Program-made: the position numbers and the translations under genes | Part shown: positions 288 through 50,710 of the stretch, one piece after another | How the letters are laid out: every line of letters begins with the position of its first letter | How positions within the stretch are numbered: the first letter of the stretch is position 1 | The notes under the pieces: generated by a model | Told to the model about the DNA's origin: nothing | Database searches by the model: none | The model's input: the letters and a program-made list of their open reading frames with translations, nothing else | Assembly: GCA_043810865.1 (NCBI GenBank) | Contig: JBDRNS010000014.1 | Span: forward strand, 1-54,078 | DNA length: 54,078 bases | Direction of reading: 5' to 3' | Origin: an archaeon | GTDB taxonomy: Archaea > Nanobdellota > Nanobdellia > Pacearchaeales > GW2011-AR1

Positions 288-290
288 CAG

Positions 291-379: not shown

Positions 380-396
380 GCTAAATTATGTGTGAA

Positions 397-500: not shown

Positions 501-524
501 ATTTGTTAGGGTGTTGATTATATG

Positions 525-720
525 CTCACTTCGTTCGCAATTATCTGCCTCAAACCAAACTTCGTTAAGGTTTTCGCTTAAAGAAATAATTAATCGATTA
601 AAACTTTTAGCGAAGAAACCTGATGAAGTTGGTTTCTAAATACATCCATCTGCGAACTAAATCCAAGGTAAATTCCTTTAGGAGTTTAGTATCGGCGAGC
701 GAGACACCAGATTAATAACT
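525..720 (+). repeat. Composite intergenic repeat, copy A (CTCACTTCGTTCGCA family)
   Basis: Shares an exact 15-mer (525-539) and an exact 17-mer ACCAAACTTCGTTAAGG (554-570) with copy B at 36523-36571. The two arms 533-585 and 603-656 form a long imperfect inverted repeat. Hairpin CTAAATCC-AAGG-TAAATT-CCTT-TA-GGAGTTTAG at about 656-691. Inverted CG motif GGCGAGCGAGACACC at 694-708. Confidence 0.55.
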
Positions 721-983: not shown

Positions 984-1010
984 CTCACTTCGCTCGTTCG
1001 AAATTAATAA
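984..1010 (+). repeat. Intergenic CG-motif repeat (CTCACTTCGCTCGTTCGAAATTAATAA)
   Basis: Variant of the CTCACTTCGTTCGCAGATTAATAA-type motif seen at 525, 2093, 33106(rc), 36523 and 50503. Confidence 0.5.
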
Positions 1011-1193
1011 ATTGAAATTTTAATGGAAAGATTTTTTAGCAGTGAAGTAGTGGTGCAGAAAACCAATTAAAAATGTTTTACTATATGAAATTGAAATATC
1101 CCTAAAAGTTTTAATGTATAGGTTCTTTTATTAGTTATTGATTTAATGGGGTTGTATGGATGTAGCGGACAATTTAAAGATAAATTTATCAAT

Positions 1194-1209
1194 AACGAGC
1201 GGAGCGAGG
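1194..1209 (-). repeat. Intergenic CG-motif repeat, inverted (AACGAGCGGAGCGAGG)
   Basis: The reverse complement CCTCGCTCCGCTCGTT fits the CTCRCTYCGYTCG pattern of the family. Confidence 0.35.
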
Positions 1210-2081: not shown

Positions 2082-2092
2082 TACCAATTTAC

Positions 2093-2118
2093 CTACTCGT
2101 AAACTCGCAGATTAATAA
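2093..2118 (+). repeat. Intergenic CG-motif repeat (CTACTCGTAAACTCGCAGATTAATAA)
   Basis: Starts 11 nt after the stop of the 1278-2081 gene. Closely matches 25501-25530(rc) CTCACTCGTAAACTCGTTCGCC and 50503 CTCACTCGCAAACTCGCTCGAA. Confidence 0.5.
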
Positions 2119-2185
2119 AAAAGAATTTTAAAGAGAAACAATTAAAGATTCTGGGAAGAGTTTATTATTAACATCTTTAGAAAAA

Positions 2186-2204
2186 TCCGAGCGCAGCGAG
2201 ACAC
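2186..2204 (-). repeat. Intergenic CG-motif repeat, inverted (TCCGAGCGCAGCGAGACAC)
   Basis: Resembles 691-708 (ATCGGCGAGCGAGACACC) and 36620-36630 (TCCGAGCGAGA). Confidence 0.4.
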
Positions 2205-24823: not shown

Positions 24824-24899
24824 TAAAATATCTTTTTAAATCTATTCAAAACAACCACCAGAAATAAAAACATAAAAACCTATTTCTCCTGTTTTATTT

Positions 24900-25355: not shown

Positions 25356-25530
25356 TTGCTCGCCAAAGCCAAGATAAATTCTTTTAGAATTTAGTGTCGG
25401 CGCTCGCAAGATTAATGAGTTAAAATTTCTTCGCGGAAAATCTGAGCTAAGCCGGATTTGGAGTCAATAAATATCTGTGAGTTTACGAACAGGTAAATTA
25501 TCGGCGAACGAGTTTACGAGTGAGCGCAAT
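25356..25530 (-). repeat. Composite intergenic repeat, copy E (inverted orientation)
   Basis: The reverse complement begins CTCACTCGTAAACTCGTTCGCCGATAATTTACC. It contains the duplicated unit GAGTTTACGA (25479-25488 and 25511-25520), an AAATC...GATTT hairpin (25437-25459) and GTCGGCGCTCGCAAGATTAAT. TTGCTCGCC starts 1 nt after the Rpp30 stop. Confidence 0.5.
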
Positions 25531-25575
25531 ACAAAAAATCTATAAACTTTTTAAGCCACTTTTCTTAATTAAAAA

Positions 25576-27410: not shown

Positions 27411-27871
27411 AAAAAACAATGACTCTTTGCATAATTCAAAAACCGGAAAAAATATTGCTGGGAATGAAAAAACGCGGGTTGGGAGAAGGAAAATGGAACG
27501 GATTCGGAGGCAAGGTTGAAGAAAATGAAACAGTTAAGGAAGCGGCAATCAGAGAATTAAAGGAGGAAGCAGGAGTAATTGTTGATAAACTTGAAAAAAT
27601 CGGAGTAAATGAATTTAAATTTGAAAATGAAGATAAGATTTTTGAGGTTCATATTTTCAAGGCAAGAGAATTTTCCGGAGATATTAGAGAAAGCGAGGAA
27701 ATGAAACCGCAATGGTTCTCTCTTGATGAAATTCCTTTTGAAAAAATGTGGCCCGACGATAAATTCTGGCTGCCGTTGTTTTTGAAAGAAAAGAAATTCA
27801 GGGGAGATTTTTTGTTTCAGGGCTTTGATAAAATACTTGAACATGAACTTGCAGAGGTGGGGGAAATATAA
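27407..27871 (+). CDS. NUDIX hydrolase (MutT/MTH1-like)
   Basis: Nudix box GGKVEENETVKEAAIRELKEEAGV. The ATG overlaps the mazG-like stop (ATGA). Confidence 0.8.
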   Translation: MKKTMTLCIIQKPEKILLGMKKRGLGEGKWNGFGGKVEENETVKEAAIRELKEEAGVIVDKLEKIGVNEFKFENEDKIFEVHIFKAREFSGDIRESEEMKPQWFSLDEIPFEKMWPDDKFWLPLFLKEKKFRGDFLFQGFDKILEHELAEVGEI

Positions 27872-29505
27872 TGGCGGTTGTAAATTTCAGCAGAAAAATT
27901 TTTGAAAGAGAAATCGGAAAACTTGATGAAAAAACGCAGACGCGGATTTCAATGTTCGGAACTCCTGTAGAAGCGATTGATGACAAGGAGATACAAATTG
28001 AGATTTTTCCGAACCGCCCTGATTTGCTCTCTTATCACGGATTCAAAAGAGCATTTCTGGCTTTTCTTGGGAAAAAAACAGGGCTGAGAGAATACAAAAT
28101 AAAATCTCCTGAAAAAGATTACAAAGTTATCATTGAGTCGTCTGTAAAATCTGTGAGACCTTATACAGCATGCACAATTGTCCGCGGGTTGAGATTGGAT
28201 GACGAAAAAATAAAAGAAATAATTGAAATTCAGGAGAAAATTCACGCGACTTTAGGCAGAAAAAGAAAAAAGGTTGCGATAGGAATTTATCCTCTTGACA
28301 AAATAAAACTTCCAATAACATTCAAGGCAATTGAACCGGATAAAATAAAATTTATTCCCTTGGAAACAGAAAAGGAAATGTCAGGATTAGAAATTTTGCA
28401 AAGGCATCCGGCAGGAAAAGAATACGCGCATCTTCTTTCAGGCAAGGAGAAATTTCCGCTTTTTGTCGACGCTGCAAATAATATCCTGAGCATGCCCCCC
28501 ATAATTAATTCAGAACTCACAGGAAAAATAACTGCAGAAACAAAAGATATCTTTGTCGAATGCTCCGGTTTTGACTTTGAGATACTAAAAAAAAGCATAA
28601 ACATTCTCGCAACAATGTTTTCTGATATGGGCGGAACGATTTACCAAATGGAAATTTATTACGGCAGGAAAAAAGAAATAACTCCCAATCTGAAAACAGA
28701 TGAAATGAAAATTTCTGCTGAAAACACGAACAAACTTCTTGGGCTTGAACTTAAAGAAAAGCAGATAAAATATTGTCTTGAGAAAATGGGGCATGCATAC
28801 AGCAAGGGAATTGTGAAAATTCCGTCGTGGAGAACAGATGTGCTGCATGAAGTTGATTTGATAGAAGATGTTGCAATTGCTTACGGGCTTGAAAATTTTG
28901 TTCCGGAAATTCCTGATATTTCAACAATCGGCGGAGAAGATAAAAAGGAAATCATGAAAAGAAAAATCTGTGAAATCCTTTCAGGATTGGGAATGCTGGA
29001 AGTTTCAAGTTACCACCTTACAAACAAAATTTTCCAGTTTAAAAAAATGAACATGCCGGAGGAAAATTTTGTTGAACTGGAAGAATCAAAAACCGACTAC
29101 AATATTTTAAGAAAAAATCTATCGCATTATTTGCTGAAAATATTTTCTGAAAATCCTGATTCTGAATACCCTCAAAAAATATTTGAAATCGGAAAAGTTT
29201 TTGAGTCAAACAATGAAAAAATAAATGAAAGCGAAAAACTTGCCCTTGCTGTCTCGCCTGGGAATTTTACAGATGTAAAACAAATTCTTGAATATCTGGC
29301 GAAAGTGACTGAAAAAGAAATAAAAATAACTGAATCAGAGGAATCTCCTAATTATTTCATTCACGGAAGAACCGGAAAGATAATCTTAAACGGAAAAGCA
29401 ATTGGGTTTATCGGAGAGATTCATCCGAAAATTTTGAGAAACTGGAAAATAAAAATGCCTGTTTCCCTGTTTGAAATTGATTTGGAAGAAGTTTTAAGAG
29501 ATTAA
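27871..29505 (+). CDS. pheT: Phenylalanyl-tRNA synthetase beta subunit (archaeal type)
   Basis: 544 aa with B3/4-B5-catalytic-like organisation. N-terminus MAVVNFSRKIFEREIG and IFPNRPDLLSYHG are typical of archaeal PheT. Start overlaps the nudix stop (TAATG). Confidence 0.85.
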   Translation: MAVVNFSRKIFEREIGKLDEKTQTRISMFGTPVEAIDDKEIQIEIFPNRPDLLSYHGFKRAFLAFLGKKTGLREYKIKSPEKDYKVIIESSVKSVRPYTACTIVRGLRLDDEKIKEIIEIQEKIHATLGRKRKKVAIGIYPLDKIKLPITFKAIEPDKIKFIPLETEKEMSGLEILQRHPAGKEYAHLLSGKEKFPLFVDAANNILSMPPIINSELTGKITAETKDIFVECSGFDFEILKKSINILATMFSDMGGTIYQMEIYYGRKKEITPNLKTDEMKISAENTNKLLGLELKEKQIKYCLEKMGHAYSKGIVKIPSWRTDVLHEVDLIEDVAIAYGLENFVPEIPDISTIGGEDKKEIMKRKICEILSGLGMLEVSSYHLTNKIFQFKKMNMPEENFVELEESKTDYNILRKNLSHYLLKIFSENPDSEYPQKIFEIGKVFESNNEKINESEKLALAVSPGNFTDVKQILEYLAKVTEKEIKITESEESPNYFIHGRTGKIILNGKAIGFIGEIHPKILRNWKIKMPVSLFEIDLEEVLRD

Positions 29506-29804
29506 ACAGAATTAATCAATTCTCTCTCCCAATTTCCTCTTCTTAAATAAAGCAAATTAGCTCCTGTATATCTTGGGACTTGTCCTATTGTGGTATAACA
29601 TCCTGAAAAAACTGTTTTTCCATTATGCCTGACATGAAATTTAATCCCACCAGAAGATTCATCAAGGGAAATTCTTAAGTTATCAAAAATTACTTCTTTA
29701 CCCGCGAAATCCGAGAGTAAGTCATAAAGTTTCCCGCAAACTTTTTTCAATTTTCGCTGCTTTACTTTAACACCCTGATAATTTACAAAATCAATGTCCG
29801 CCAT
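29502..29804 (-). CDS. Orphan 100-aa protein
   Basis: Convergent 4-nt overlap with pheT. No motif recognised. Confidence 0.45.
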   Translation of the reverse strand: MADIDFVNYQGVKVKQRKLKKVCGKLYDLLSDFAGKEVIFDNLRISLDESSGGIKFHVRHNGKTVFSGCYTTIGQVPRYTGANLLYLRRGNWERELINSV

Positions 29805-29847
29805 TATTATTAATACTCTGGGGATTTATAAAAATTATTGCATTAAA

Positions 29848-30336
29848 TCATCCAAAATAGCCCTTGCCATTTCCTTCGACCTTATTGTCCCACTTCTTTT
29901 TTATTGAATCAACAACATCAAGCAAGTCGTCTTTCATCCCGCGCCACATTTTAAAAGAGCTTTTAATGAATTCTATTTCTTTATTCTCTGAGAATTCAAT
30001 ATCAAGTTCTATTATATTTACTTCATTTTTTATGAGCTGCTTGTAAATTTCTGTTATTTTCTTTTTGTCCTCGGCGTTGAGAGTTTTTATGACGCTGAAT
30101 ACAAACATCGGAGCACCTGTCGGATTTAACAGCATTTCAAGGAATCTCAGGTAAGCGGAAAATTTTTCAGCCATGTGTCTTCTCACTTCCCTGACAAGAA
30201 TTTCAGATTCATTTTCCTGAATTTTTTCTATGGAAAAATCCTCGTTCATTTCATTAAAAGACGGCAGAGAATATTTTTTCTGAATCTCTGAATAGTCCTT
30301 TTTCAGTTTTTCAAGTTTTGATTCTTCTTTTGACAT
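29848..30336 (-). CDS. Hypothetical helical protein
   Basis: Composition resembles the core genes. No motif recognised. Confidence 0.55.
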   Translation of the reverse strand: MSKEESKLEKLKKDYSEIQKKYSLPSFNEMNEDFSIEKIQENESEILVREVRRHMAEKFSAYLRFLEMLLNPTGAPMFVFSVIKTLNAEDKKKITEIYKQLIKNEVNIIELDIEFSENKEIEFIKSSFKMWRGMKDDLLDVVDSIKKKWDNKVEGNGKGYFG

Positions 30337-30430
30337 TTTTAGAAATACGATAATGATTTTATAAATTTATTGAAAAAAGAATTATTAGATTTTATACTAA
30401 GAGTTATTTTTAGATGATTTATGGTTTAGA

Positions 30431-30901
30431 TTAATTTAAAAGATGTCTAATATCGCTTTTGTCCGCAGTAAAAGTGTAAACTTCACATTCTCCATCAGAA
30501 GTTATAGGTTCTCCAAAAGAATTATCTCTTCTTTTTGCGTAAAGGAATCTATAAGTCAACTCTGCCCAATGAACACGTCTTCTCTTTTCTTCAAGATATG
30601 TAGTTAAGGCTCTTTTAAACTCTCTTGGAGCATTTGGGAGAACAGCATCAACATCCTCATAAGAACTTAAGGATTTAAGAACCATTTGAAATGCATTATC
30701 TCCTCCAGTTTGGGGGGCGATTTCTCCCAAAAGAGGGTGTACTATTCTACTTTTATCAGTAAAAATTAAATCTCCTCCTGGAAACATTAGATAATACCCT
30801 TCTTGCCCATTTGAAGATCTTCCCCTAAATCCTTCAATCTCAAATTCACTTGAATGAGTTGGAAATATTTCATTTAACATAAAACTCTTAAAATTAGTCA
30901 T
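30431..30901 (-). CDS. Orphan 156-aa protein
   Basis: No motif recognised. Lies immediately downstream of tRNA-Thr on the same strand. Confidence 0.5.
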   Translation of the reverse strand: MTNFKSFMLNEIFPTHSSEFEIEGFRGRSSNGQEGYYLMFPGGDLIFTDKSRIVHPLLGEIAPQTGGDNAFQMVLKSLSSYEDVDAVLPNAPREFKRALTTYLEEKRRRVHWAELTYRFLYAKRRDNSFGEPITSDGECEVYTFTADKSDIRHLLN

Positions 30902-30923
30902 TTATAAATCTTATGAAACAAAA

Positions 30924-30997
30924 AGCCTCAGCTGAGAATTGAACTCAGGACCTCGACATTACCAATGTCGCGCTCTAACCGACTGAGCTACTGAGGC
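30924..30997 (-). tRNA. tRNA-Thr (anticodon GGU), no intron
   Basis: GCCTCAG-TA-GCTC-AGTCGGTTA-GAGC-G-CGACA-TTGGTAA-TGTCG-AGGTC-CTGAG-TTCAATT-CTCAG-CTGAGGC-T. Confidence 0.9.
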
Positions 30998-31018
30998 CTG
31001 AGAATAAATTTCAAGAAT

Positions 31019-31028
31019 TATATTTAAA
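31019..31028 (-). promoter_or_regulatory. TATA-like box for tRNA-Thr
   Basis: Minus-strand TTTAAATATA, 22 nt upstream of the tRNA 5' end. Confidence 0.45.
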
Positions 31029-31030
31029 TC

Positions 31031-31363
31031 TTACCTGCGCATCATCCTGAGGAAAAACAAAATCAAATACACTAGAACAAATGCCACAAAGACAAATCCC
31101 GTAACCAGCGCGAACATTTTGAAGAAATTTCTGAAGAGTTCGTTTGAAGTAACGTAATAAAGTCCAAGGGAAATAATGAATAATATTCCAAAAACAAACA
31201 TATTCTTTATGACAATATTCTTTTTTCTTTCAGGATGAACCATTCTTTTTGAAGTTCTTGTTCCTGAATTTCTTCTGCTTCTTCTGTAAGATGAAGTTCT
31301 TCCCGAGACCCTTCCTGAAGTTTTTCGTGAAACTCTCTTCTTACTTCTCCTCTTTTTAACCAT
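31031..31363 (-). CDS. Small membrane protein with Arg/Ser-rich basic N-terminus
   Basis: MVKKRRSKKRVSRKTSGRVSGR... followed by two TM segments. Confidence 0.55.
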   Translation of the reverse strand: MVKKRRSKKRVSRKTSGRVSGRTSSYRRSRRNSGTRTSKRMVHPERKKNIVIKNMFVFGILFIISLGLYYVTSNELFRNFFKMFALVTGFVFVAFVLVYLILFFLRMMRR

Positions 31364-31400
31364 ATTAATTTATAGACAATATTGTTTTTAAGGGTTTCTA

Positions 31401-31718
31401 CTATGAGGTTTTGTTTTCTGTTCCCCAGTCCATATTAATTGCGTCAGATGTCAGGACTTTCATGTTTTCAAAAGCCGAGCCAATCCATGAGAAATAAACT
31501 CTGCTGAAATCAGTCATGTCACTAAAGTCATTTATATTTGCGTCGGAGACGACATAAACGTATCCCAATGAACCCATTAAAAAAACAAACAGAACAATGA
31601 ACAATCTCACTGCGAATGCCTGTTTTTTGGTAATGATTGACAATGAAATCATGACTATAAGAACGACGATTGCGATAAGTATCGGGATTGTAATTAGCAT
31701 AAAATACAGAAACAACAA
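31401..31718 (-). CDS. Small membrane protein
   Basis: Two TM segments followed by an acidic tail. Confidence 0.5.
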   Translation of the reverse strand: MLFLYFMLITIPILIAIVVLIVMISLSIITKKQAFAVRLFIVLFVFLMGSLGYVYVVSDANINDFSDMTDFSRVYFSWIGSAFENMKVLTSDAINMDWGTENKTS

Positions 31719-31772
31719 TTGTATAAAAATGTTTCTAGTAACATTTAAAATGTTCAGAGAATTACTTTAACT

Positions 31773-32144
31773 ATGAAAAGTGGTGTTGTATTTGGAATTA
31801 TTTTAGTGATTGCATTGATTATTGCAGGGTATTTTTTATTTATGGGGAAAAGTTCAGATAATTTACCATTGCAAAACAGCGGAACTGAAAGCGGGAATAT
31901 AATTGAAATAAAAAATTTTGCATTTCAGCCAAATGAATTAACAATAAGCCAGGGTGATACTGTTGTTTGGACTAACAAAGATGCAGGAGTAAAACATACA
32001 GTTACTTCTGATTCCGGAAATGAACTTGATTCAGAACTTCTCTCAAAAGGAGAAAGTTATTCTCACACTTTCAATGAAAAAGGAACTTTTGATTATCACT
32101 GCACACCGCATCCTTATATGGAAGGGAAAGTGATTGTGGAGTAA
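31773..32144 (+). CDS. Membrane-anchored type-1 copper protein (amicyanin/plastocyanin-like cupredoxin)
   Basis: N-terminal TM. Cu ligands His (VKHTVTS) and C-x2-H-x2-M in DYHCTPHPYM, the spacing found in amicyanin. Confidence 0.75.
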   Translation: MKSGVVFGIILVIALIIAGYFLFMGKSSDNLPLQNSGTESGNIIEIKNFAFQPNELTISQGDTVVWTNKDAGVKHTVTSDSGNELDSELLSKGESYSHTFNEKGTFDYHCTPHPYMEGKVIVE

Positions 32145-32192
32145 TTTTTAGTATAATAATTTATTTAAAGGAGTATAAATCTCGATTTTATA

Positions 32193-33074
32193 ATGAACGA
32201 AGAGATAAATTTTATTGTCCCAGAAAAAATTAGTTTATTAAATCACCCAACATTAAATGAAAAATGGGTTCAGCAAAAAATAGCAGATACTCCCCAAGTA
32301 TTAGATATTAGTGGACATAATCTAATTTTAAGGGATAAAGAAAGAATACAACCAAGAGCAGGGAGGCTTGACTTATTATTTCAATGTTCTGATTGTGATA
32401 AAAGATTTGAAGTGGAAGTTCAACTTGGAAAAGTTGATGAAAGCCATATCATAAGAACTATTGAATATTGGGATATAGAAAGAAAAAGATACCCTCAATA
32501 TGACCATTGTGCAGTTATAATTGCTGAAGATATAACAAACAGATTTCTAAATGTAATAAATCTTCTTAATGGGGCGATTCCCTTAATTGTTATAAAAATG
32601 GAAGCATATAAACATCAAAATAATTCTTGGCTTACTTTTACAACGGTTTTAAATGAAGCTAATTTGGGGTTAGTTGAAGAAGATGAAATAAAAGAAGTAA
32701 CAGACAGAAATTATTGGGAGAAAATGGGGCCAAAAACCATTACATTAGCAGATGAGGTAATTAAAATGATAAAAGAATTTGATAGTAATTATGAATTAAA
32801 ATATAATAAATTTTATATTGGATTGGCAAAAAATGGACAACCAGATAATTTTGTTACTTTTCGGCTTAGAAAAACAATGGTTGTAATGGACATTAAGTTA
32901 GAACAACTTAATGAAACAGATAAATTAATTGAAGATTCTGGATTAGATTTAATGGGTTATGATAGTAAATGGGGAAGGTATAATATAAGAATTTCTGGTG
33001 GAGATTTAGAAAAAAACAGAGAATTAATTATGAGGTTATTAAAAATGGCTTCTGGTAGAAACATAGAAGATTAA
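32193..33074 (+). CDS. PD-(D/E)xK nuclease-like protein (NucS/DUF91-like core) with C-terminal extension
   Basis: RAGRLDLLFQ...FEVEVQLGKVDESHIIRTIEYW matches the D...ExK core followed by the conserved helix seen in RecB-like nucleases. Confidence 0.5.
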   Translation: MNEEINFIVPEKISLLNHPTLNEKWVQQKIADTPQVLDISGHNLILRDKERIQPRAGRLDLLFQCSDCDKRFEVEVQLGKVDESHIIRTIEYWDIERKRYPQYDHCAVIIAEDITNRFLNVINLLNGAIPLIVIKMEAYKHQNNSWLTFTTVLNEANLGLVEEDEIKEVTDRNYWEKMGPKTITLADEVIKMIKEFDSNYELKYNKFYIGLAKNGQPDNFVTFRLRKTMVVMDIKLEQLNETDKLIEDSGLDLMGYDSKWGRYNIRISGGDLEKNRELIMRLLKMASGRNIED

Positions 33075-33084
33075 TAACAATCTT

Positions 33085-33106
33085 ATCAATCTGCGAACGA
33101 AGTGAG
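33085..33106 (-). repeat. Intergenic CG-motif repeat, exact 16-mer copy
   Basis: The reverse complement reads CTCACTTCGTTCGCAGATTGAT, identical over 16 nt to 36523-36538. It starts 15 nt after the stop of the minus-strand gene 33122-33523. Confidence 0.6.
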
Positions 33107-33121
33107 CAGGAAGATTTTTAT

Positions 33122-33523
33122 TTATTTTTTCTTATCTAAAATTCCTGAAATTTCCAAGCCGAGATAGAAAACCAAAATGTGATAAATCCACCAGAAAAAA
33201 GGATGAAGGAAAATTCCGAATATTACAAATGGCGGCGGAGCGTAAAGTGCTGTAACTCCAAGGAACTGGACAAATCCTGAATAAGATGAAACCAGATAAT
33301 AAAACGAAATCCACGTTCCGAAGACGAATGAAAAAATTAATTTTCTCATATGGGATTTTTTGTTGTAAATTGAAAACCAAATGAAAGCGAACAGAGTTGC
33401 ATTCGCAAATTTTGAAATGTAATAATAATTTGTTTCACCGACGCCTGTTAGATGAAGAATAAAATCCATAATCCAGAAAACAGCAACAACTATTGCTATT
33501 TTGTAAATCACTTCTTTTTTCAT
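33122..33523 (-). CDS. Integral membrane protein (4 TM)
   Basis: Hydrophobic throughout. No motif recognised. Confidence 0.6.
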   Translation of the reverse strand: MKKEVIYKIAIVVAVFWIMDFILHLTGVGETNYYYISKFANATLFAFIWFSIYNKKSHMRKLIFSFVFGTWISFYYLVSSYSGFVQFLGVTALYAPPPFVIFGIFLHPFFWWIYHILVFYLGLEISGILDKKK

Positions 33524-33573
33524 TGAAACACTAGTATAATTAAATTTATAAAATCTTCTTATACAGAAAATTA

Positions 33574-33879
33574 ATGGGACTTAAAAGAATTTTAGCAGGA
33601 GTTGGAATTGTATTAACTTTGTATGGTTGCGCGGCAAAACAAGGAAATGTACCACCATATTCCATACAAGAATATGCACGGGAATATTCGCAAAGAAGAC
33701 AAATGATTGATAGGTTGGTTGAAACAGGACAATTTGATGAAGGCGCAGCTATTGGTTTAGTTTGTTCAGCAACAAGTTACAGGAGAACGGCCTTTGGAAA
33801 TGTAGATGATAGAAGAAAAGAACAGGAATGTCTAGATTGGTTTCATTTTGGAGAATTTAATCCTGGAAACACACCTTAA
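33574..33879 (+). CDS. Small lipoprotein-like protein
   Basis: MGLKRILAGVGIVLTLYGC has a lipobox-like LYGC. Confidence 0.5.
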   Translation: MGLKRILAGVGIVLTLYGCAAKQGNVPPYSIQEYAREYSQRRQMIDRLVETGQFDEGAAIGLVCSATSYRRTAFGNVDDRRKEQECLDWFHFGEFNPGNTP

Positions 33880-34739
33880 ATCAAATTCGGAATTAATCTT
33901 TTCTCTAAAGAAAGAACTTTATTATTATAAGAAACCAGAGTAAAAATTGATCTTGCAGTCATTTCTATTTCATTTTTATAAACAGGAAAGTTTAATTTTT
34001 CATAAATCGCTACGACAGATTTTTTTAATGTTTCAAGAGGACTATGGCTGCGAATTTCTTTTCCTCCTGAAAAATAAGACAGAAGTGTTCTGTATGCAAG
34101 ATTCATTCTATCTTTTCTATCCTGCGTGCTATTAAGCGAGTGAAATTCCCTTAACTGACTTTCAAGAGAGATAATCTCATTTCTTGATTGAATGGTTCTT
34201 TTTTGCAGGGCTAAAACAATATTTCTTATTTCATATGGCTTTGCTTCAAATCCTTTAGCATTATAAAAATCAACAGTTAAATTCTGAAAAGTTCTTGCAG
34301 AGTTTCTTGAAGCAATTCTTCCTTTCCTGTTTATCTCTGATAAAATATAATTAAATGCTAATCCCTCTCTTTCTTTTCTCTCCCTGCTTCCATAAGATGA
34401 AAAATTTGCAATTTGCTCCCTTATATTTTCTATTTGAGAAATTTTATCTTTTATATAACCAAGAAAAATTTTTACAATGCTATTAAGCTGAGTCCGATTC
34501 AAAGTTCTGTTTGCAAATCCTGAAACATAATTCTTAATTATTTGTAGTTTATCTTCTGACTCTGCAAAATATCTAACAATTCTTGGAGTTAATTTATGAT
34601 ATGCAAGAGAAGCAACCCCCTCTTCAGAATTTCGCGCTGACTTCTGTCTATGCCTTCCCAATATTTCTGAATTTCTTTTTTCTGTTTCTTCTTCAATTTC
34701 TCTTAATATCCTTTCTGCAGCATCCATAAAAAAACCCAA
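33876..34739 (-). CDS. Orphan helical protein with apparent internal duplication
   Basis: Two ~65-aa segments beginning GFANRT... and GFEAKP... align loosely. No known motif. Confidence 0.5.
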   Translation of the reverse strand: MGFFMDAAERILREIEEETEKRNSEILGRHRQKSARNSEEGVASLAYHKLTPRIVRYFAESEDKLQIIKNYVSGFANRTLNRTQLNSIVKIFLGYIKDKISQIENIREQIANFSSYGSRERKEREGLAFNYILSEINRKGRIASRNSARTFQNLTVDFYNAKGFEAKPYEIRNIVLALQKRTIQSRNEIISLESQLREFHSLNSTQDRKDRMNLAYRTLLSYFSGGKEIRSHSPLETLKKSVVAIYEKLNFPVYKNEIEMTARSIFTLVSYNNKVLSLEKRLIPNLI

Positions 34740-34747
34740 ATAGAAGA

Positions 34748-34757
34748 TTTAATAAAT
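34748..34757 (+). promoter_or_regulatory. TATA-like box for tRNA-Gln
   Basis: TTTAATAAAT ends 22 nt upstream of 34779. Confidence 0.45.
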
Positions 34758-34778
34758 CTTTTTAATTAAACAATTTAA

Positions 34779-34911
34779 AGCCCCATAGTACAGCGGTCAA
34801 GTATGTCGCCCTCTGGGCGAGCGATTTCGTGGTAGAGAGTAAATCTCCATCCATGGCTCGTGCGAAGTCGGGAGAGAGGCGGTGACCCAGGTTCGAATCC
34901 TGGTGGGGCTA
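34779..34911 (+). tRNA. tRNA-Gln (anticodon CUG) with 60-nt intron (34817-34876) at 37/38
   Basis: AGCCCCA-TA-GTAC-AGCGGTCAA-GTAT-G-TCGCC-CTCTGG^intron^A-GGCGG-TGAC-CCAGG-TTCGAAT-CCTGG-TGGGGCT-A. The A1:U72 pair is typical of archaeal tRNA-Gln. BHB-like: CTCT/GGAG helix with bulges GG^G and AG^A. Confidence 0.8.
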
Positions 34912-34919
34912 TACTTAAA

Positions 34920-35336
34920 ATGGAAAACTGCGGGTTATGTATTGCATTTAAAAAAGGTTCACAAGTTATAGATGAAAGTGACTTGTGTTTTTCAATGGTG
35001 AATTATGAGCCGATGCAAAAAGGACATGTGATGGTTGTGCCGAAGAGACATGTTGAATTATTGGCTGATTTTTCTGACGATGAGATAAAAGATTTTTTCA
35101 GGATGATTGATAAAACGCGGAAGTTGGTTGAGAAAAGTCACGATAATGGTGTTCTTATTTTGCTGAACGGGAAAAAATTCAAATCGCAGAATCATTTTCA
35201 TATGCACATAGTTCCTGTTCCTGAGGGCTTGAGGGAAATCATGTCAAAATATAACAACTCTCCGGTAAGGAAGAAAATATCTGAAGAAGAAATGAAAGAA
35301 ACCAGAGAACATTTGTTAAAAAATCTCAGAGATTAA
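34920..35336 (+). CDS. HIT (histidine triad) family hydrolase
   Basis: HFHMHIVP triad. Start trimmed to ATG 34920 because the listed N-terminal extension is the tRNA-Gln 3' exon read as protein. Confidence 0.8.
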   Translation: MENCGLCIAFKKGSQVIDESDLCFSMVNYEPMQKGHVMVVPKRHVELLADFSDDEIKDFFRMIDKTRKLVEKSHDNGVLILLNGKKFKSQNHFHMHIVPVPEGLREIMSKYNNSPVRKKISEEEMKETREHLLKNLRD

Positions 35337-35344
35337 TTTCTAAA

Positions 35345-35641
35345 ATGGCGACAGAAGTAGCGTATCTTTTATGCGATAGATTAAGAGAAGAAGAAAAGAA
35401 AGTTGTTCTTGGATTTAGAGATTACGGGGGAGATTATATAGAGGGTTATTTTGGAGCAAGAGACATAACTCCGGCATTCAGAAGAAATTCCGTGTGTTTA
35501 AGAGTTGTTGTTACAAATGCTGACGGCGGATTTAGATTTGAAGTTCGTCTTCCGTCTTCAAGAACAACAAAGGGAACGAATCTTTATCATGTTGAAAGAG
35601 ATATTTTAAGATTTCAGGATGACTCTGATTATGCTTCGTGA
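35345..35641 (+). CDS. Orphan 98-aa protein
   Basis: No motif recognised. Follows HIT with an 8-nt spacer. Confidence 0.45.
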   Translation: MATEVAYLLCDRLREEEKKVVLGFRDYGGDYIEGYFGARDITPAFRRNSVCLRVVVTNADGGFRFEVRLPSSRTTKGTNLYHVERDILRFQDDSDYAS

Positions 35642-35689
35642 GCAATATAGTATAATAATTCTTATATAGGATTATTTAGTAAATAAATT

Positions 35690-36172
35690 ATGGAAAAAGG
35701 AGGGTGGGAACCAACGAGAATTTCTCCAGAACATTTAGTTTCCGCATATATCTTAAATCAGATTAGTCATGGGAATATAAGACATCTTGATGATGAGGAA
35801 TGTGCTCATGTCATCTCTTTGTTTTTATCTTTGTTTCGAGAAAATAAGAATTCCCTTAAATTTGATTTAACATATACTACTTACAGAGGTTCTGCTCGGG
35901 GCGAGTATTCTCCCGAAGTTGGGGCAGAATTTCAATTTCTTTGTGATACTAGGCGTGCTATTGAATATTTTCCCGGAGAATTTATAATTACTCGAAAAGG
36001 TATTAAATATGCCATGGAAAAAGTGGATGAATTGCGACGCGAAGATTTAGATGCTGCTAATCAACTTGAAGTTATGACTGAGCAGGCAAATTATGATTTA
36101 AGACAGAGGAAAACTTGGCGTAAGCATGATATTTTTATGTCCCGTGCCAGAAAACTTTTGTTTGGAATTTAG
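35690..36172 (+). CDS. Orphan 160-aa protein, possible winged-helix module
   Basis: YSPEVGAEFQFLCDTRRAIEYFPGEFIITRKGIKYAME has the look of a wHTH wing. Weak, by eye only. Confidence 0.45.
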   Translation: MEKGGWEPTRISPEHLVSAYILNQISHGNIRHLDDEECAHVISLFLSLFRENKNSLKFDLTYTTYRGSARGEYSPEVGAEFQFLCDTRRAIEYFPGEFIITRKGIKYAMEKVDELRREDLDAANQLEVMTEQANYDLRQRKTWRKHDIFMSRARKLLFGI

Positions 36173-36212
36173 AATGCAATAAATTTAAATATTCCAAATT
36201 CTTAAATAAAAT

Positions 36213-36515
36213 ATGCCGAAAACAAAAAAAGAAAAGGTGAAACCAAAAAAAGTTTCTGCCGGGAAAAAAGAAAAATTGGTTGGTGAGGTTTCAAATTATT
36301 TTGAACATGCGAAAGCGGCTGCGATAAAATTGAAATCTCCATTAAAGGTTGGCGACAAAATTCACATAAAAGGCGGAGAAAAGGACTTTGTGCAAAAAGC
36401 GAAGAGTATGCAGATACACAGAAAAGATGTGAAGAGCGGAAAAAAGGGAGATGAAGTCGGATTGATTGTCGACGAGAAAGTTAGAAAAGGATACAAAGTT
36501 TTCTTGGTTGAATAA
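36213..36515 (+). CDS. Small protein with EF-Tu domain-2-like beta-barrel (translation-factor-like)
   Basis: VGEVSNYFEHAKAAAIKLKSPLKVGDKIHIKG...MQIHRKDVKSGKKGDEVGLIVDEKVRKGYKV matches the pattern of stand-alone elongation-factor-like barrel proteins. Lys-rich N-terminus. Confidence 0.55.
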   Translation: MPKTKKEKVKPKKVSAGKKEKLVGEVSNYFEHAKAAAIKLKSPLKVGDKIHIKGGEKDFVQKAKSMQIHRKDVKSGKKGDEVGLIVDEKVRKGYKVFLVE

Positions 36516-36522
36516 AATACTA

Positions 36523-36688
36523 CTCACTTCGTTCGCAGATTTATTTATCTCCGTACCAAACTTCGTTAAGGCACTCCGCGAAAAAAAGTTTTAATGTGTT
36601 AGATTTCTTATACAAAAAATCCGAGCGAGAATGGATTTAGAGTTATCAAGGATGCTGAATTAATAAGCGAGCACGAAGTGCGAGCGAA
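36523..36688 (+). repeat. Composite intergenic repeat, copy B
   Basis: The exact 15-mer CTCACTTCGTTCGCA starts 7 nt after the upstream stop codon. Exact 17-mer ACCAAACTTCGTTAAGG at 36555-36571. Hairpin AAATCC-GAGCGAGAAT-GGATTT at about 36616-36637. Inverted terminal motif AGCGAGCACGAAGTGCGAGCGAA at 36666-36688. Confidence 0.55.
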
Positions 36689-36694
36689 ATATAA

Positions 36695-36703
36695 TTTTAA
36701 AAA
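36695..36703 (+). promoter_or_regulatory. TATA-like box for tRNA-Glu(CUC)
   Basis: TTTTAAAAA ends 22 nt upstream of 36725. Confidence 0.45.
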
Positions 36704-36724
36704 CCAAATACTCTATTTCATTTC

Positions 36725-36880
36725 AGCCCTCATAGTCTAGAGGCCAAGGACGCCACCCTCTCAATGCTGAAGTTTAGTCGTTGAGACAATAACTTCTGTC
36801 TTAAATGACAGGCAATTCGTGGGAATTTTATTCTCACATAGGGAACGGTGGTAACCCGAGTTCGAATCTCGGTGAGGGCG
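36725..36880 (+). tRNA. tRNA-Glu (anticodon CUC) with 83-nt intron (36763-36845) at 37/38
   Basis: GCCCTCA-TA-GTCT-AGAGGCCAA-GGAC-G-CCACC-CTCTCA^intron^C-GGTGG-TAAC-CCGAG-TTCGAAT-CTCGG-TGAGGGC-G. BHB-like: CTCT/AGGG helix with bulges CA^A and AA^C. Confidence 0.8.
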
Positions 36881-36890
36881 TATCCAAAGA

Positions 36891-36908
36891 TTGAGCGAAG
36901 CGAGTAGG
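36891..36908 (-). repeat. Intergenic CG-motif repeat, inverted (TTGAGCGAAGCGAGTAGG)
   Basis: The reverse complement CCTACTCGCTTCGCTCAA fits the family pattern. Followed by a T6 run. Confidence 0.4.
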
Positions 36909-36917
36909 TAGAGGGCG

Positions 36918-36923
36918 TTTTTT
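36918..36923 (+). terminator. Oligo-T run downstream of tRNA-Glu(CUC)
   Basis: GAGGGCG-TTTTTT, 38 nt after the tRNA 3' end. Confidence 0.35.
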
Positions 36924-36977
36924 GAAGATATATTAGGAAAGAGAAAACTATAAAATTGTTTAATTCTTGAGAAGATT

Positions 36978-38153
36978 ATGAAAAAGAGAGTAAAAATCTT
37001 TATCTTTATTTTGATTGTTTTAGTTTTGGGAGTTCTGGGAATTATTATTAAAGGATTAAATACACATGGCCAAATCGAACCTTTTATGCCAACAATTATA
37101 ACTGAACCTTATACTGATATTTATCTTCCGGTTAGCAGTTATCCTATTGATGTTGATGGTAATGGATTAGTTGATTATTTAGTAGTTGAGTTTGAAACTA
37201 ATCTTTCTAACGAAGAAAACTATGATATCTCAGGAATTCTTCTTGGGGAAAATGAGGATTATATCTCTTCAAGTGGTAAAATTGTAGATTTTAGCAATAA
37301 AAGAATTATTCAATTAAATTTTAGTGGGCTCGGTATTCGTTCAAAAGAAATGGGTGGCAAATTTAGATTTGGAAATGTATATGTAATAGGAGATAATACT
37401 CGTTTGAATATTCAAAATAAAACTTATTTTACTCAGAACTATAATAAAAATGATTTTGAATATCAATCTCATCTATTAGAATGTGGAAAAATTGTCTTGC
37501 CTAATTTGGTATATATTTTAGATAATAACCTAAATACTAGTGGTGATTGTTTCAATGTTCAAACAGGAAATATTATTTTAAATCTAAATGAGCACATTAT
37601 TTCTGGAGATGGTTCTGGAATAGGAATCTATGAGAGTTACCAAAGTAATGTTTCAATAAAAAATGGGAGAATCTCCAATTTTTCTAAGGGCATGGAAATA
37701 AGACACTCAAATAACAATATAATAACCAATTTGTTCATTGGTTCAAATAAAGGAGATGGAATAAACAATGGGCAAGGAATTGACTTTCTTCTTAGTAATT
37801 ATAATTTAATTAGTAATAATACTTTTGATAATAACGAAGGAGATGCTATAAACTTGGATGGTTCTAGTTCTAATAATATTTCTAATAACAATTTTACTAG
37901 TGGTTTTAGGGCAGGGGTTTATTTATTAGGATCTAATAATAATACAATAAAAGAAAATTTTATCATGAATAGTCAATATATTGGAATTTATCTTAATCAA
38001 GCTTCGGGAAATCAAATAACCAATAACACTATTAGTTTGACTAAATTTTGGGGCATATACGTAGAAAAATCTAGTGTAGATCAGAATATTATTAGCAATA
38101 ACACTCTTTCTAAAAATGGAAGAAAAGGTATTTATTTTGAAGAGATAACGTAA
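36978..38153 (+). CDS. Membrane-anchored right-handed beta-helix (NosD/pectate-lyase-like PbH1 repeat) protein
   Basis: N-terminal TM. The C-terminal half has ~22-aa repeats of the type NNxIxNNxFxxNxxxGIxL (NNIITNLFIGSNKGDGI; NLISNNTFDNNEGDAI; NNISNNNFTSGFRAGV; NTIKENFIMNSQYIGI). Confidence 0.7.
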   Translation: MKKRVKIFIFILIVLVLGVLGIIIKGLNTHGQIEPFMPTIITEPYTDIYLPVSSYPIDVDGNGLVDYLVVEFETNLSNEENYDISGILLGENEDYISSSGKIVDFSNKRIIQLNFSGLGIRSKEMGGKFRFGNVYVIGDNTRLNIQNKTYFTQNYNKNDFEYQSHLLECGKIVLPNLVYILDNNLNTSGDCFNVQTGNIILNLNEHIISGDGSGIGIYESYQSNVSIKNGRISNFSKGMEIRHSNNNIITNLFIGSNKGDGINNGQGIDFLLSNYNLISNNTFDNNEGDAINLDGSSSNNISNNNFTSGFRAGVYLLGSNNNTIKENFIMNSQYIGIYLNQASGNQITNNTISLTKFWGIYVEKSSVDQNIISNNTLSKNGRKGIYFEEIT

Positions 38154-38556: not shown

Positions 38557-38741
38557 TAAAATAACTAACTCCTCCCTATTCCTGAGAGTTCATTAATTAT
38601 CATAGACAAGCCCTTTTCAAGAGTTTCATTTATTGCACCAAGTTTGGCGGAAATTTCTTTCAGAATTTTGCCGATATTTTCCTCATCCATGGAATTAAAT
38701 AGTTTTGTTCTTTTTATAATTTTTTATAATCTCTTGCAAAA

Positions 38742-48057: not shown

Positions 48058-48070
48058 TTCTTCAATAACT

Positions 48071-50473: not shown

Positions 50474-50536
50474 CTGCTCGCCTTCGGCTCGCTTTAATTT
50501 GTCTCACTCGCAAACTCGCTCGAATTGATAATTTAA
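50474..50536 (+). repeat. Intergenic CG-motif repeats (two tandem units)
   Basis: CTGCTCGCCTTCGGCTCGCT followed by CTCACTCGCAAACTCGCTCGAATTGATAATTTAA. The latter closely matches copy E(rc) and 2093-2118. Confidence 0.5.
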
Positions 50537-50710
50537 TTTTAACAAAAAAGTTTTTTAGCGAGGAGATTAGAATTTACAAAGAGTATTAATGAATATTTTA
50601 ACATAGTAGCATTTTTAGTGTATGATGTGGGAAGTAAATCATGAACAAGTGAACACAAATTCTAAATTACCTACAGACAGATTTAAAAGTATAAATTTTC
50701 TCTTTAAAAC

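What the first reader, a model, noticed from the sequence alone, without database searches (positions are those of the whole stretch)
36523..36538. Dispersed CG-containing intergenic repeat family, often placed just after stop codons
The 15-mer CTCACTTCGTTCGCA occurs exactly three times: at 525-539, at 36523-36537 and reverse-complemented at 33092-33106. The last two are identical over 16 nt. Degenerate relatives fit CTCRCTYCG(N0-6)TCG followed by AGATTRATAA. They occur at 984-1010, 2093-2118, 25501-25530(rc), 50503-50536, 36666-36688(rc), 36891-36908(rc), 1194-1209(rc), 2186-2204(rc) and 691-708(rc). In at least five cases the motif begins 1-47 nt after the stop codon of the gene on the same strand (after 2081, 25355, 33122 on the minus strand, 36515 and 50428). 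These CpG-rich islands stand out in otherwise AT-rich spacers, and they account for most spacers longer than 100 nt in this compact window. They could be a REP/MITE-like element, a 3'-UTR processing or termination signal, or a protein-binding site.
Basis: seen in the sequence. Interest (0 to 1): 0.65.

Follow-up and report, generated by a model that had tools for sequence, protein, structure and literature searches.

The report
Palindromic mini-hairpin repeats in DPANN archaeon
The CG-containing motifs are a real family of short hairpin-forming repeats, usually set as inverted pairs, that were inserted between genes of a small-genome DPANN archaeon; relatives of the family sit in-frame inside conserved genes of other groundwater microbes, so it behaves like bacterial REP/REPIN and Rickettsia palindromic elements, which a 2022 preprint says had not been detected in archaea.

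Summary
CTCACTTCGTTCGCA occurs three times (0.02 expected), and all the degenerate relatives are at the stated coordinates. About 21 modules lie in 7 of ~66 spacers.

The window is a housekeeping contig of a Pacearchaeota/Nanoarchaeota-like DPANN archaeon with no transposase. On its purine strand each module can form a mini-hairpin: G-C/C-G, two tandem G·A pairs, 1-4 compensating Watson-Crick pairs and a GNA loop. Standard folding programs do not detect this hairpin, so the case rests on covariation.

Modules form inverted doublets, always pyrimidine-form then purine-form, 60-230 bp apart around variable AT-rich spacers. Two doublets are lineage-specific insertions: the orthologous spacers in relatives are 1-105 nt and lack them.

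Family members in other AT-rich groundwater contigs sit in-frame inside Elp3, AlaRS and a Bud32-like kinase. Close Elp3 homologues (about 450 aa, against 575) have empty sites.

Best reading (0.6): a REP/REPIN- or RPE-like mobile palindromic element. The mobilising enzyme is unknown and could not be tested here. A pure 3'-end or terminator signal is not supported.

The same hairpin cap recurs in haloarchaea, methanogens, CPR-like and other bacteria. That recurrence is unexplained.

The parts
523..718 (.). Element A, a doublet between the divergent tRNA-Glu(-) and the intron-bearing tRNA(+). Left module is TGCTCACTTCGTTCGCA at 523-539 (pyrimidine form). Second module is ACCAAACTTCGTTAAGG at 554-570. 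A fragment ATCTGCGAAC lies at 648-657. Right module is CGGCGAGCGAG at 693-703 (purine form), followed by AGATTAATAA at 709-718.
   Evidence: Folds far better than shuffles (z -6.6 on +, -4.2 on -). 74% identical over 66 nt to the in-frame Elp3 insert of L241.
984..1208 (.). Element C, a doublet. Left is CTCACTTCGCTCGTTCGAAATTAATAA at 984-1010. Right is CGAGCGGAGCGAG at 1196-1208, which contains the mini-hairpin word GCGGAGC at 1199-1205.
   Evidence: The arms are alike over 41 nt (score 36 against 13.6 +/- 2.4 in shuffles, 0 of 300).
2086..2202 (.). Element D, in a convergent spacer. Left is AATTTACCTACTCGTAAACTCGCAGATTAATAA at 2086-2118. Right is AAAAATCCGAGCGCAGCGAGAC at 2181-2202, containing GCGCAGC at 2191-2197. 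Each flanking gene sees the pyrimidine form 14 or 25 nt after its stop codon.
   Evidence: 94% identical over 33 nt (23 nt exact) to a copy in the nearest relative, L125.
25358..25527 (.). Element E, between RNase P p30 and pheS. Left modules are GCTCGCC at 25358-25364 and CGGCGCTCGCAAGATTAATGAG at 25398-25419. Right modules are 25473-25499 and 25499-25527, both purine form with TTTA loops.
   Evidence: The orthologous spacer is 1 nt (L251), 14 nt (L121) and 35 nt (L123), without the motif.
33088..33108 (-). Solo module G, GCTCACTTCGTTCGCAGATT read on the minus strand, in a 47-nt convergent spacer. It lies 15 nt after the stop of gene 33122-33523(-).
   Evidence: 21-nt exact matches occur in Natrinema plasmids.
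36523..36686 (.). Element B, between an EF-Tu-domain-2-like gene and the intron-bearing tRNA at 36726-36880. Left module is 36523-36541. Second module is 36555-36571. Internal hairpin AAAAATCCGAGCGAGA is at 36615-36630. Right module is AATTAATAAGCGAGCACGAAGTGCGAGCG at 36657-36686.
   Evidence: The arms are alike over 31 nt (p about 0.007). The orthologous spacer is about 85 nt in L123 and about 105 nt in L251, without the motif.
36893..36904 (+). Solo module H, GAGCGAAGCGAG, containing GCGAAGC at 36895-36901. It lies 13 nt after the tRNA 3' end and upstream of the promoter of gene 36978.
50476..50567 (.). Element F. It holds GCTCGCCTTCGGCTCGC at 50476-50492 (rc contains CCGAAGG), CTCACTCGCAAACTCGCTCGAATTGATAA at 50503-50531, and a weak purine-form partner AGCGAGGAG at 50559-50567.
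   Evidence: The right end is weak.

Best explanation
The motifs are a family of REP-like palindromic modules in a DPANN (Pacearchaeota/Nanoarchaeota-like) archaeon. Most are organised as REPIN-like inverted doublets.

The module. Read on its purine-rich strand, the core is GC-GA-(1-4 nt)-GNA-(complement)-GA-GC. This can fold as a single-stranded mini-hairpin with two outer G-C pairs, two tandem G·A pairs, a short compensating Watson-Crick stem and a GNA triloop. A subfamily has a TTTA loop instead. A conserved AGATTRAT lies on the inner side of each module.

The doublet. Two modules are placed 60-230 bp apart and always read pyrimidine-form then purine-form on either strand. They bracket a variable AT-rich spacer that may hold further small hairpins.

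What is shown. The family is real. The hairpin shows covariation. The orientation rule holds without exception. Elements E and B are insertions relative to relatives. Family members occur in-frame inside conserved genes of other genomes, with empty sites in close homologues.

What is inferred. The elements spread, or once spread, as selfish DNA through single-stranded hairpin intermediates handled by a trans-acting structure-specific enzyme encoded elsewhere, of the HUH/Y1 (RAYT/IS200) type or something else. In this compact genome they survive only in the narrow neutral gap between a stop codon and the next promoter. Secondary effects on transcript ends or on insulating neighbouring genes are possible but not shown.
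For: Repeat family:
- Enrichment statistics and the hexamer ranking.
- A profile search finds copies only in 7 spacers.

Hairpin:
- Window variants keep pairing through double changes: AC/GT, GCAC/GTGC, GCC/GGC and GC/GC, with loops GAA, GCA and GGA.
- In 831 kb of other loci, 20 of 25 non-seed GCGA-NN-GNA-NN-GAGC instances have complementary NN (6% expected).
- In an unbiased scan the two middle positions are GA/GA 22 times, Watson-Crick 12, TC/TC 1 and other 41. The random ratio is 1:16:1:238. So the GA/GA pair and the GNA loop are selected on the same strand.
- 77% of 124 genome hits have the pairing G at position -1.

Doublets:
- Orientation is pyrimidine-then-purine in all 9-10 pairs: 6 in the window, 2 in L125, and one each in L179 and L206.

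Selection on modules rather than linkers:
- A and B share exact 15-nt and 17-nt blocks separated by unlike 14-nt and 17-nt linkers.

Insertion and patchiness:
- Orthologous spacers lack the elements.
- Family words: 4 modules in 7 kb of L125, 1 in L121, and none in L123, L249, L250 or L251.
- Positions differ between the window and L125.

Intragenic in-frame copies:
- L241 Elp3 has a 31-aa insert starting at the 19-mer. It also has a second insert of about 78 aa that is a full pyrimidine-then-purine element.
- Elp3 homologues at 68-74% identity are 450-455 aa and have both sites empty.
- L230 AlaRS has a 26-aa insert, and the L244 kinase has an insert carrying the same QSASEAS peptide.

Literature fit:
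- REPIN definition (bioRxiv 10.1101/2021.07.10.451892).
- REP dimers close to gene 3' ends, and intragenic REPs/RPEs (PMC3733652, PMC10969869).
Against: - No transposase or RAYT gene lies in the 54-kb window (about 60 ORFs scanned) or beside the ten copies checked elsewhere.
- No target-site duplication was seen.
- There is no GTAG or CGTC tag.
- Only elements C and B have significantly similar arms; the other pairs are heterotypic.
- Internal sequences are mosaic and lengths vary, so recent transposition is not shown.
- No close sister genome exists, and the public runs hold the organism at about 3x. No filled/empty polymorphism could be tested within the species.
- Nearest-neighbour folding gives the mini-hairpins no significant stability. 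The review PMC13037366 says standard parameters fail for this class.
- No copy in the window itself is intragenic.
Confidence: 0.6

Rival explanations
1. Host cis-regulatory cassette. The pyrimidine-form copy after a stop codon and the purine-form copy before the next TATA box act as a terminator, insulator or RNA-stabilising hairpin that separates neighbouring transcription units.
For: - Copies lie 2-47 nt after stop codons and 5-45 nt upstream of TATA-like boxes.
- Modules are conserved while linkers drift.
- Bacterial REPs have such side functions (PMC3733652).
- In a CPR-like contig (L194) the same hairpin alternates with sigma70-like promoters.
- RNA-derived contigs of haloarchaea run through tRNA trailers that carry motif variants.
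Against: - Orthologous gene pairs in relatives have 1-35-nt spacers without the motif.
- About 59 of 66 spacers in the window lack it.
- No oligo-T tract follows the copies.
- Copies also occur in a divergent promoter region.
- Related copies sit in-frame inside Elp3, AlaRS and a kinase, where a terminator would be harmful.
Confidence: 0.18
2. Small structured non-coding RNA genes. Elements A and B are transcribed RNAs of about 170-190 nt closed by a terminal stem with G·U pairs between the left and right modules.
For: - Element A folds at z -6.6.
- The consensus fold of A, B and the L241 copy has a terminal 8-bp stem with G·U pairs possible on one strand only. Of 25 predicted pairs, 8 show compensatory changes.
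Against: - The consensus rests on only three sequences.
- There is no Rfam match.
- Elements C-F fold no better than shuffles on at least one strand.
- The L241 copy is inside a coding sequence.
- No RNA data exist for this organism.
Confidence: 0.1
3. Duplex-DNA binding sites for a sequence-specific host protein, such as a transcription factor or chromatin protein that recognises CTCGC/ACTTCGTT words next to ATTAAT.
For: - The 8-mer ACTTCGTT recurs in both module types.
- A conserved AGATTRAT word lies adjacent to the modules.
Against: - RCTTCGYT as such is not enriched (9 against 5.7 expected).
- The arms carry GA/GA on one strand rather than symmetric complementary bases (22 against 12 Watson-Crick and 1 TC/TC).
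- Inner stem bases change freely as long as they stay complementary.
Confidence: 0.07

Closest known systems
REP sequences and REPIN doublets of bacteria (mobilised by RAYT, a Y1 HUH transposase)
   Same: - A short imperfect palindrome of about 15 nt.
- An extragenic location close to gene 3' ends.
- Inverted doublets whose spacer is variable while the palindromes are conserved.
- Heterodimers and singletons occur.
- Patchy, lineage-specific abundance.
   Different: - The host is a DPANN archaeon. REPINs were stated not to have been detected in archaea (bioRxiv 10.1101/2021.07.10.451892).
- There is no GTAG or CGTC tag.
- The stem irregularity is a tandem G·A pair with a GNA triloop.
- No RAYT was found, and its presence was not testable on 54 kb.
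- Spacers reach 230 bp.
Rickettsia palindromic elements (RPE) and intragenic REPs
   Same: Palindromic repeats of reduced genomes that occur both between genes and as in-frame, stop-free insertions in conserved housekeeping genes. Here the genes are Elp3, AlaRS and a Bud32-like kinase in related contigs, with empty sites in homologues.
   Different: - The sequences are unrelated.
- No intragenic copy lies in this window.
- The hosts are groundwater DPANN and CPR-like organisms, not Rickettsia.
Correia elements and other prokaryotic MITEs
   Same: - Non-coding elements of 100-230 bp with inverted ends near genes.
- They can fold as long hairpins.
- They sit next to promoters.
   Different: - No target-site duplication.
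- Ends are often heterotypic.
- Internal sequence is not conserved.
- No parent insertion sequence is known.
Mini-hairpin DNA d(GCGNAGC)/d(CCGAAGG) (Hirao and co-workers; review PMC13037366)
   Same: The window holds the exact words GCGAAGC, GCGCAGC, GCGGAGC and CCGAAGG at module centres. Each has a GNA triloop closed by C-G. The tandem G·A pairs lie in the pyrimidine-GA-purine context, which from general knowledge of DNA structure favours sheared pairs.
   Different: The known natural examples are single sites in phage and plasmid origins or promoters, not dispersed chromosomal repeat families. Folding of these particular sequences was not measured.
PATEs (palindrome-associated transposable elements derived from IS200/IS605, described in haloarchaea and cyanobacteria)
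   Same: Archaeal non-autonomous elements built around subterminal hairpins that a single-strand HUH transposase recognises.
   Different: No IS200/IS605 ends, tnpA or tnpB remnants are associated with the copies examined.

Membership tests
REP/REPIN-RAYT system | Short imperfect palindrome able to form a stem-loop | tested here: met
   Compensatory changes in the inner stem. GA/GA selected over Watson-Crick and TC/TC. The thermodynamic prediction is uninformative.
REP/REPIN-RAYT system | Two REPs in inverted orientation with a variable spacer | tested here: met
   Six doublets in the window, two in L125, and one each in L179 and L206. All are pyrimidine-then-purine. Spacers are 60-230 bp and poorly conserved.
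REP/REPIN-RAYT system | Tens to hundreds of extragenic copies per genome | tested here: inconclusive
   About 21 modules lie in 7 of ~66 spacers of one 54-kb contig. The rest of the genome is not available.
REP/REPIN-RAYT system | Conserved terminal GTAG (or CGTC) tetranucleotide | tested here: not met
   The aligned copies have no such tag. The conserved flank is AGATTRAT on the inner side.
REP/REPIN-RAYT system | A single-copy RAYT (Y1 HUH transposase) gene flanked by the REPs | not testable with these tools
   None among about 60 window ORFs or ten ORFs beside copies in other contigs. Only 54 kb of the genome is accessible.
MITE | Terminal inverted repeats | tested here: inconclusive
   Significant for C (41 nt) and B (31 nt), borderline for E, and not significant for A, D, F and the L125 pairs.
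MITE | Target-site duplication | tested here: not met
   No direct repeat flanks any of the six doublets (sequence read).
MITE | Parent insertion sequence with the same ends | tested here: not met
   No pair of family ends 0.04-4 kb apart encloses an ORF in about 1.9 Mb of fetched loci.
Rickettsia-palindromic-element-like intragenic repeats | In-frame, stop-free insertion in conserved genes, absent from orthologues | tested here: met
   Met in related contigs, not in the window: L241 Elp3 (two inserts), L230 AlaRS and the L244 kinase. Elp3 homologues of 450-455 aa have empty sites.
Archaeal intrinsic terminator | Oligo-T tract (five or more T) at the transcript end | tested here: not met
   The sequences following the pyrimidine-form copies have runs of at most four T.
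Mini-hairpin DNA (GCGNAGC class) | C-G-closed GNA triloop word | tested here: met
   GCGAAGC at 36895-36901, GCGCAGC at 2191-2197, GCGGAGC at 1199-1205, CCGAAGG as rc of 50481-50487, and ACGAAGT five times.
Mini-hairpin DNA (GCGNAGC class) | Extraordinary thermal and nuclease stability of the folded strand | not testable with these tools
   This needs melting curves or NMR. ViennaRNA DNA parameters give 0 to -3.6 kcal/mol.
Known RNA families (Rfam 15) | Covariance-model match | tested here: not met
   Only tRNAs match in the window spacers and in 33 other loci that carry the motif.

The most novel reading that the evidence does not exclude
The hairpin cap (T)GC-GA-NN-GNA-NN-GA-GC(A) is the recognition structure of a so far undescribed single-strand transposition system. 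That system would be active across domains: DPANN archaea, haloarchaea, methanogens, CPR and other bacteria. The window would then show the first archaeal REPIN-like population, one that can also colonise coding sequences.
Probability: 0.2. Interest if true: 0.85.

Novelty: new variant of a known kind. Interest (0 to 1): 0.62.

Why it matters
REP/REPIN elements are regarded as long-lived intragenomic replicators of bacteria, and a 2022 preprint states that they had not been detected in archaea. RPE-type in-frame insertions are a curiosity known mainly from Rickettsia.

A family with both behaviours in ultra-small DPANN genomes, with relatives in CPR-like bacteria, would matter in three ways:
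- It would show that very compact genomes still carry selfish palindromes.
- It would give a source of lineage-specific protein insertions in these organisms.
- It would offer a defined DNA structure (tandem G·A plus a GNA loop) with which to look for the enzyme that moves the elements.

The modules are also practical markers. They explain the unusually long spacers in this contig and could be used to bin or type related genomes.

Tried and rejected
- Rfam at gathering and at permissive thresholds found only tRNAs on the window spacers and on 33 motif-bearing loci.
- A sister-genome presence/absence test failed. The best homologue of ORF 1278-2081 is 48% identical. The best PheRS is 73%. The window's PheRS is not on record elsewhere.
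- Laying contigs of four groundwater runs on 24000-38000 confirmed the sequence but gave no empty-site joints at about 3x depth.
- No RNA runs hold the organism.
- Nearest-neighbour folding of single modules was uninformative.
- A search for long elements bounded by family ends found none.
- Pfam scans for a transposase in the window and beside copies elsewhere were negative.
- Exact-string literature searches for the motifs returned only plasmid and primer sequences.
- The metagenome scan was largely taken up by one high-copy family in ORF-poor contigs. It shares the 19-mer but could not be identified.

Hypotheses considered and dropped:
- split-tRNA complementary leaders
- box C/D sRNAs (no C/D boxes)
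- K-turn or K-loop (no 3-nt bulge)
- replication-origin ORB repeats (too many sites, and a different sequence)
- CRISPR (no regular spacing)
- sequencing adaptor contamination (the copies occur in isolates and in independent assemblies)

Full report
OBSERVATION

The 15-mer CTCACTTCGTTCGCA occurs at 525, 36523 (+) and 33092-33106 (-). That is 3 matches against 0.02 expected. The shared stretches are longer than reported: 19 nt between 36523-36541 and rc 33088-33106, and 17 nt between 523-539 and rc 33092-33108. The degenerate pattern CTCRCTYCG has 7 matches against 0.48 expected.

I found further ones:
- a second exact 17-nt module at 554-570 and 36555-36571
- 25398-25419
- 25473-25499
- 36615-36630
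- 50476-50492

A profile built from the copies finds them in seven spacers and nowhere else in the window. The three hexamers most specific to intergenic DNA are CGTTCG, CGCTCG and GCTCGC, which rank ahead of the TATA-box words. Contigs from independent public runs reproduce two of the spacers exactly.

CONTEXT

The window is a whole 54-kb contig at 35% G+C. It has archaeal features:
- an RNase P p30 subunit
- archaeal-type PheRS subunits
- several tRNA genes with long introns

PheRS-alpha is at most 73% identical to anything public, and its best hits are named Pacearchaeota or Nanoarchaeota. Four groundwater metagenomes hold the sequence at low depth. About 60 ORFs were scanned against Pfam. 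They are housekeeping genes or unknowns, and no transposase is present.

ANATOMY OF A MODULE

Read on the purine-rich strand, the exact repeat is (T)GC-GA-AC-GAA-GT-GA-GC(A). This allows:
- two outer Watson-Crick pairs
- two tandem G·A pairs
- two inner Watson-Crick pairs
- a GAA loop

Other window copies keep this plan with different inner stems and loops: GCGA-GCAC-GAA-GTGC-GAGC (36667-36685), GCGA-GCC-GAA-GGC-GAGC (rc 50476-50492), and CGA-GC-GAA/GCA/GGA-GC-GAG (36893, 2188, 1196). A subfamily has G-TTTA-C at the tip (2096-2110, 25477-25490, 25508-25521).

In 831 kb of unrelated loci that carry the 15-mer, 25 further GCGA-NN-GNA-NN-GAGC words occur. Twenty of them have complementary NN, against 6% expected. 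In a scan that leaves the two middle positions free, they are GA/GA 22 times, Watson-Crick 12 times, TC/TC once and other 41 times. The random ratio is 1:16:1:238.

So the GA/GA pair is selected, and it is selected on the same strand as the GNA loop. This points to a single-stranded hairpin rather than a symmetric duplex site.

Standard folding parameters give these hairpins no significant stability. The review of mini-hairpin DNA states that current parameters fail for GCGNAGC-type hairpins (PMC13037366). The exact words GCGAAGC, GCGCAGC, GCGGAGC and CCGAAGG are at module centres.

ARRANGEMENT

Modules come mostly as inverted pairs 60-230 bp apart: 523/693, 984/1196, 2086/2181, 25358+25398/25473+25499, 36523/36615+36657, and 50476+50503/50559. 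Two are solo: 33088-33108 and 36893-36904.

On the + strand the left partner is always the pyrimidine form and the right partner the purine form. The same holds in two pairs of the nearest relative L125 and in L179 and L206. A conserved AGATTRAT lies on the inner side of each module.

The rule holds whatever the flanking genes do: divergent tRNAs at 397-469 and 752-923, tandem genes, and convergent genes. As a result, every gene sees the pyrimidine form after its stop codon and the purine form upstream of its TATA box.

Only elements C and B have arms that are significantly alike. The others pair different subtypes, as REP heterodimers do (PMC3733652).

A and B share exact 15-nt and 17-nt blocks separated by unlike linkers of 14 and 17 nt. 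This indicates selection on the modules rather than recent copying.

INSERTION AND PATCHINESS

The p30-pheS spacer is 220 nt here. It is 1, 14 and 35 nt in L251, L121 and L123.

The spacer between the EF-Tu-domain-2-like gene and the intron-bearing tRNA is 210 nt here. It is about 85 and 105 nt in L123 and L251, without the motif.

Family words are absent from L123, L249, L250 and L251. One occurs in L121. Four modules occur in 7 kb of L125, at positions that are not orthologous to those of the window. L125 shares a 23-nt exact stretch with 2096-2118.

COPIES INSIDE GENES ELSEWHERE

A scan of metagenome contigs with CTCRCTTCGYTCGCAGATT returned more than 120 loci. Among the AT-rich, gene-dense loci, three carry the module inside a conserved gene.

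1. L241 Elp3.
   - It aligns to the solved Dehalococcoides Elp3 with a 31-residue insert (residues 332-362, NLGSLRSQIDG...) where the structure has two residues.
   - The insert starts 6 nt before the 15-mer. It is 74% identical over 66 nt to window element A.
   - A second insert of about 78 residues is a full pyrimidine-then-purine element ending CGAGCTAAGCGAGGCAA, which resembles 1196-1212 of the window.
   - Elp3 homologues at 68-74% identity are 450-455 residues long with both sites empty. Others carry different inserts at the same two sites.
2. L230 AlaRS, of bacterial type. It has a 26-residue insert, PSEKVSANNKSASEASPIGLGGREIS, with no gap in the Aquifex structure.
3. L244, a Bud32/RIO-like kinase. 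It has an insert with QSASEASLIRGGG between the catalytic loop and the DFG motif.

These are the hallmarks of Rickettsia palindromic elements and intragenic REPs (PMC3733652, PMC10969869).

INTERPRETATION

The best-supported reading is a REP/REPIN- or RPE-like family of palindromic, mobile or formerly mobile elements.

Bertels and Rainey describe REPINs as two inverted REPs, each with a palindrome of about 14 bp. The spacer is variable and the REPs are conserved. [quoted passage not shown]

Di Nocera et al. report that REP dimers lie 20-100 bp apart, mostly between tandem and convergent genes. They are often less than 20 bp from the 3' ends (PMC3733652). This matches the placement after stop codons seen here.

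What is missing:
- the enzyme, since no RAYT or other transposase was found
- any target-site duplication
- the GTAG or CGTC tag
- within-species polymorphism, which could not be tested

I therefore treat this as a new variant that works like REP/REPIN and RPE elements, not as a member of the RAYT system.

RIVALS

- A host terminator or insulator cassette is compatible with the placement. It does not explain the absence from orthologous spacers, the lack of oligo-T tracts, or the intragenic copies.
- A small RNA gene is suggested by the strong fold of element A (z -6.6) and by a three-sequence consensus with a G·U-containing terminal stem. The other elements do not fold significantly, and no RNA data exist for this organism.
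- A duplex binding site is disfavoured by the GA/GA asymmetry.

WIDER OCCURRENCE (unexplained)

The 15-mer was found in 120 genome loci before the scan stopped.
- 77% have the pairing G at position -1.
- 15% sit at the tip of a perfect stem of 6 bp or more, against 0.9% of control positions.
- About 36 of the 120 loci are archaeal by their record titles. The scan order may bias this figure.

Examples:
- hairpins beside or between tRNA genes in haloarchaea
- 62-nt tandem units in Methanosarcinaceae
- a 22-bp-arm palindrome in a Lachnospiraceae genome
- a conserved element of about 150 nt in Natrinema megaplasmids that carries two such hairpins, with AC/GT and CC/GG stems

I cannot tell whether this reflects a shared mobilising system, horizontal spread, or convergence on an exceptionally stable DNA hairpin cap.

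Noticed in passing
window 752-923, 36726-36880, 48101-48249; by eye also about 34793-34895, 47941-48062 and 290-392(-): There are many tRNA genes with long introns of 75-100 nt. ARAGORN misses them. Rfam finds three, and the others were seen only by eye. The stretch 290-392(-) looks tRNA-like with an unusually long acceptor-like stem, but no tool called it.
   Followed up: partly
L128, L139, L140, L162 and about 90 other loci from the metagenome scan (samples Ga0209367, Ga0056128, Ga0209671, Ga0209454): One high-copy repeat family carries ...TTTTTCTGCTCGCTTCGCTCGCAGATTATTTGTACC... in contigs at 40-45% G+C. Under any stop-codon reassignment tested, the longest reading frame in nearly all of these contigs stays below about 370 residues, so this is probably eukaryotic host DNA. 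It is 88-91% identical over 33 nt to window 33088-33120. There is no Rfam match.
   Followed up: partly
L194 4737-5001 (also L145, L198, L203, L209): In a gene-dense contig at 37% G+C, four 31-nt hairpins (AAGAATCTGC-TCGCTTCGCTC-GCAGATTCTT and a variant) alternate with three sigma70-like promoters (TTGATT-N17-TATAAT). The array lies directly upstream of a gene.
   Followed up: partly
L044, L047, L054, L061, L064, L099, L116 and others (Methanosarcinaceae MAGs): The 15-mer lies in a unit of about 62 nt, GAAAATGCTCACTTCGTTCGCATTAACTTGGACTACATAATCTTATAGATTATATACAAC..., repeated in tandem and dispersed over several contigs.
   Followed up: no
L246 and L247 2470-2640 (Natrinema megaplasmids); L025, L030, L091, L096, L113 (haloarchaeal chromosomes): A conserved intergenic element of about 150 nt holds two hairpins of the same plan (GCGAACGAAGTGAGC and GCGACCGAAGGGAGC). 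In other haloarchaea the 15-mer caps a hairpin between convergent tRNA genes. RNA-derived contigs of related species run from the tRNA into trailers that carry motif variants.
   Followed up: partly
literature search: CGAGCGCAGCGAG, the word at window 2188-2200, appears in many papers only because it is part of plasmid or primer sequences printed there. From memory it belongs to the pBR322/pUC (ColE1-type) backbone near the origin; this was not checked.
   Followed up: no
alignment of Elp3 homologues P0136-P0166: Elp3 of these DPANN lineages has two insertion hot spots, after REVGF.L and after LLRLRI. Homologues at 60-75% identity carry unrelated or related inserts of 10-90 residues there, many starting F(D/E)(N/E)L(R/H)S.
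   Followed up: partly
window 52454-52902 and 38557-38741: These are long spacers (449 and 185 nt) without the repeat family and without a called gene or RNA. Their content was not examined.
   Followed up: no
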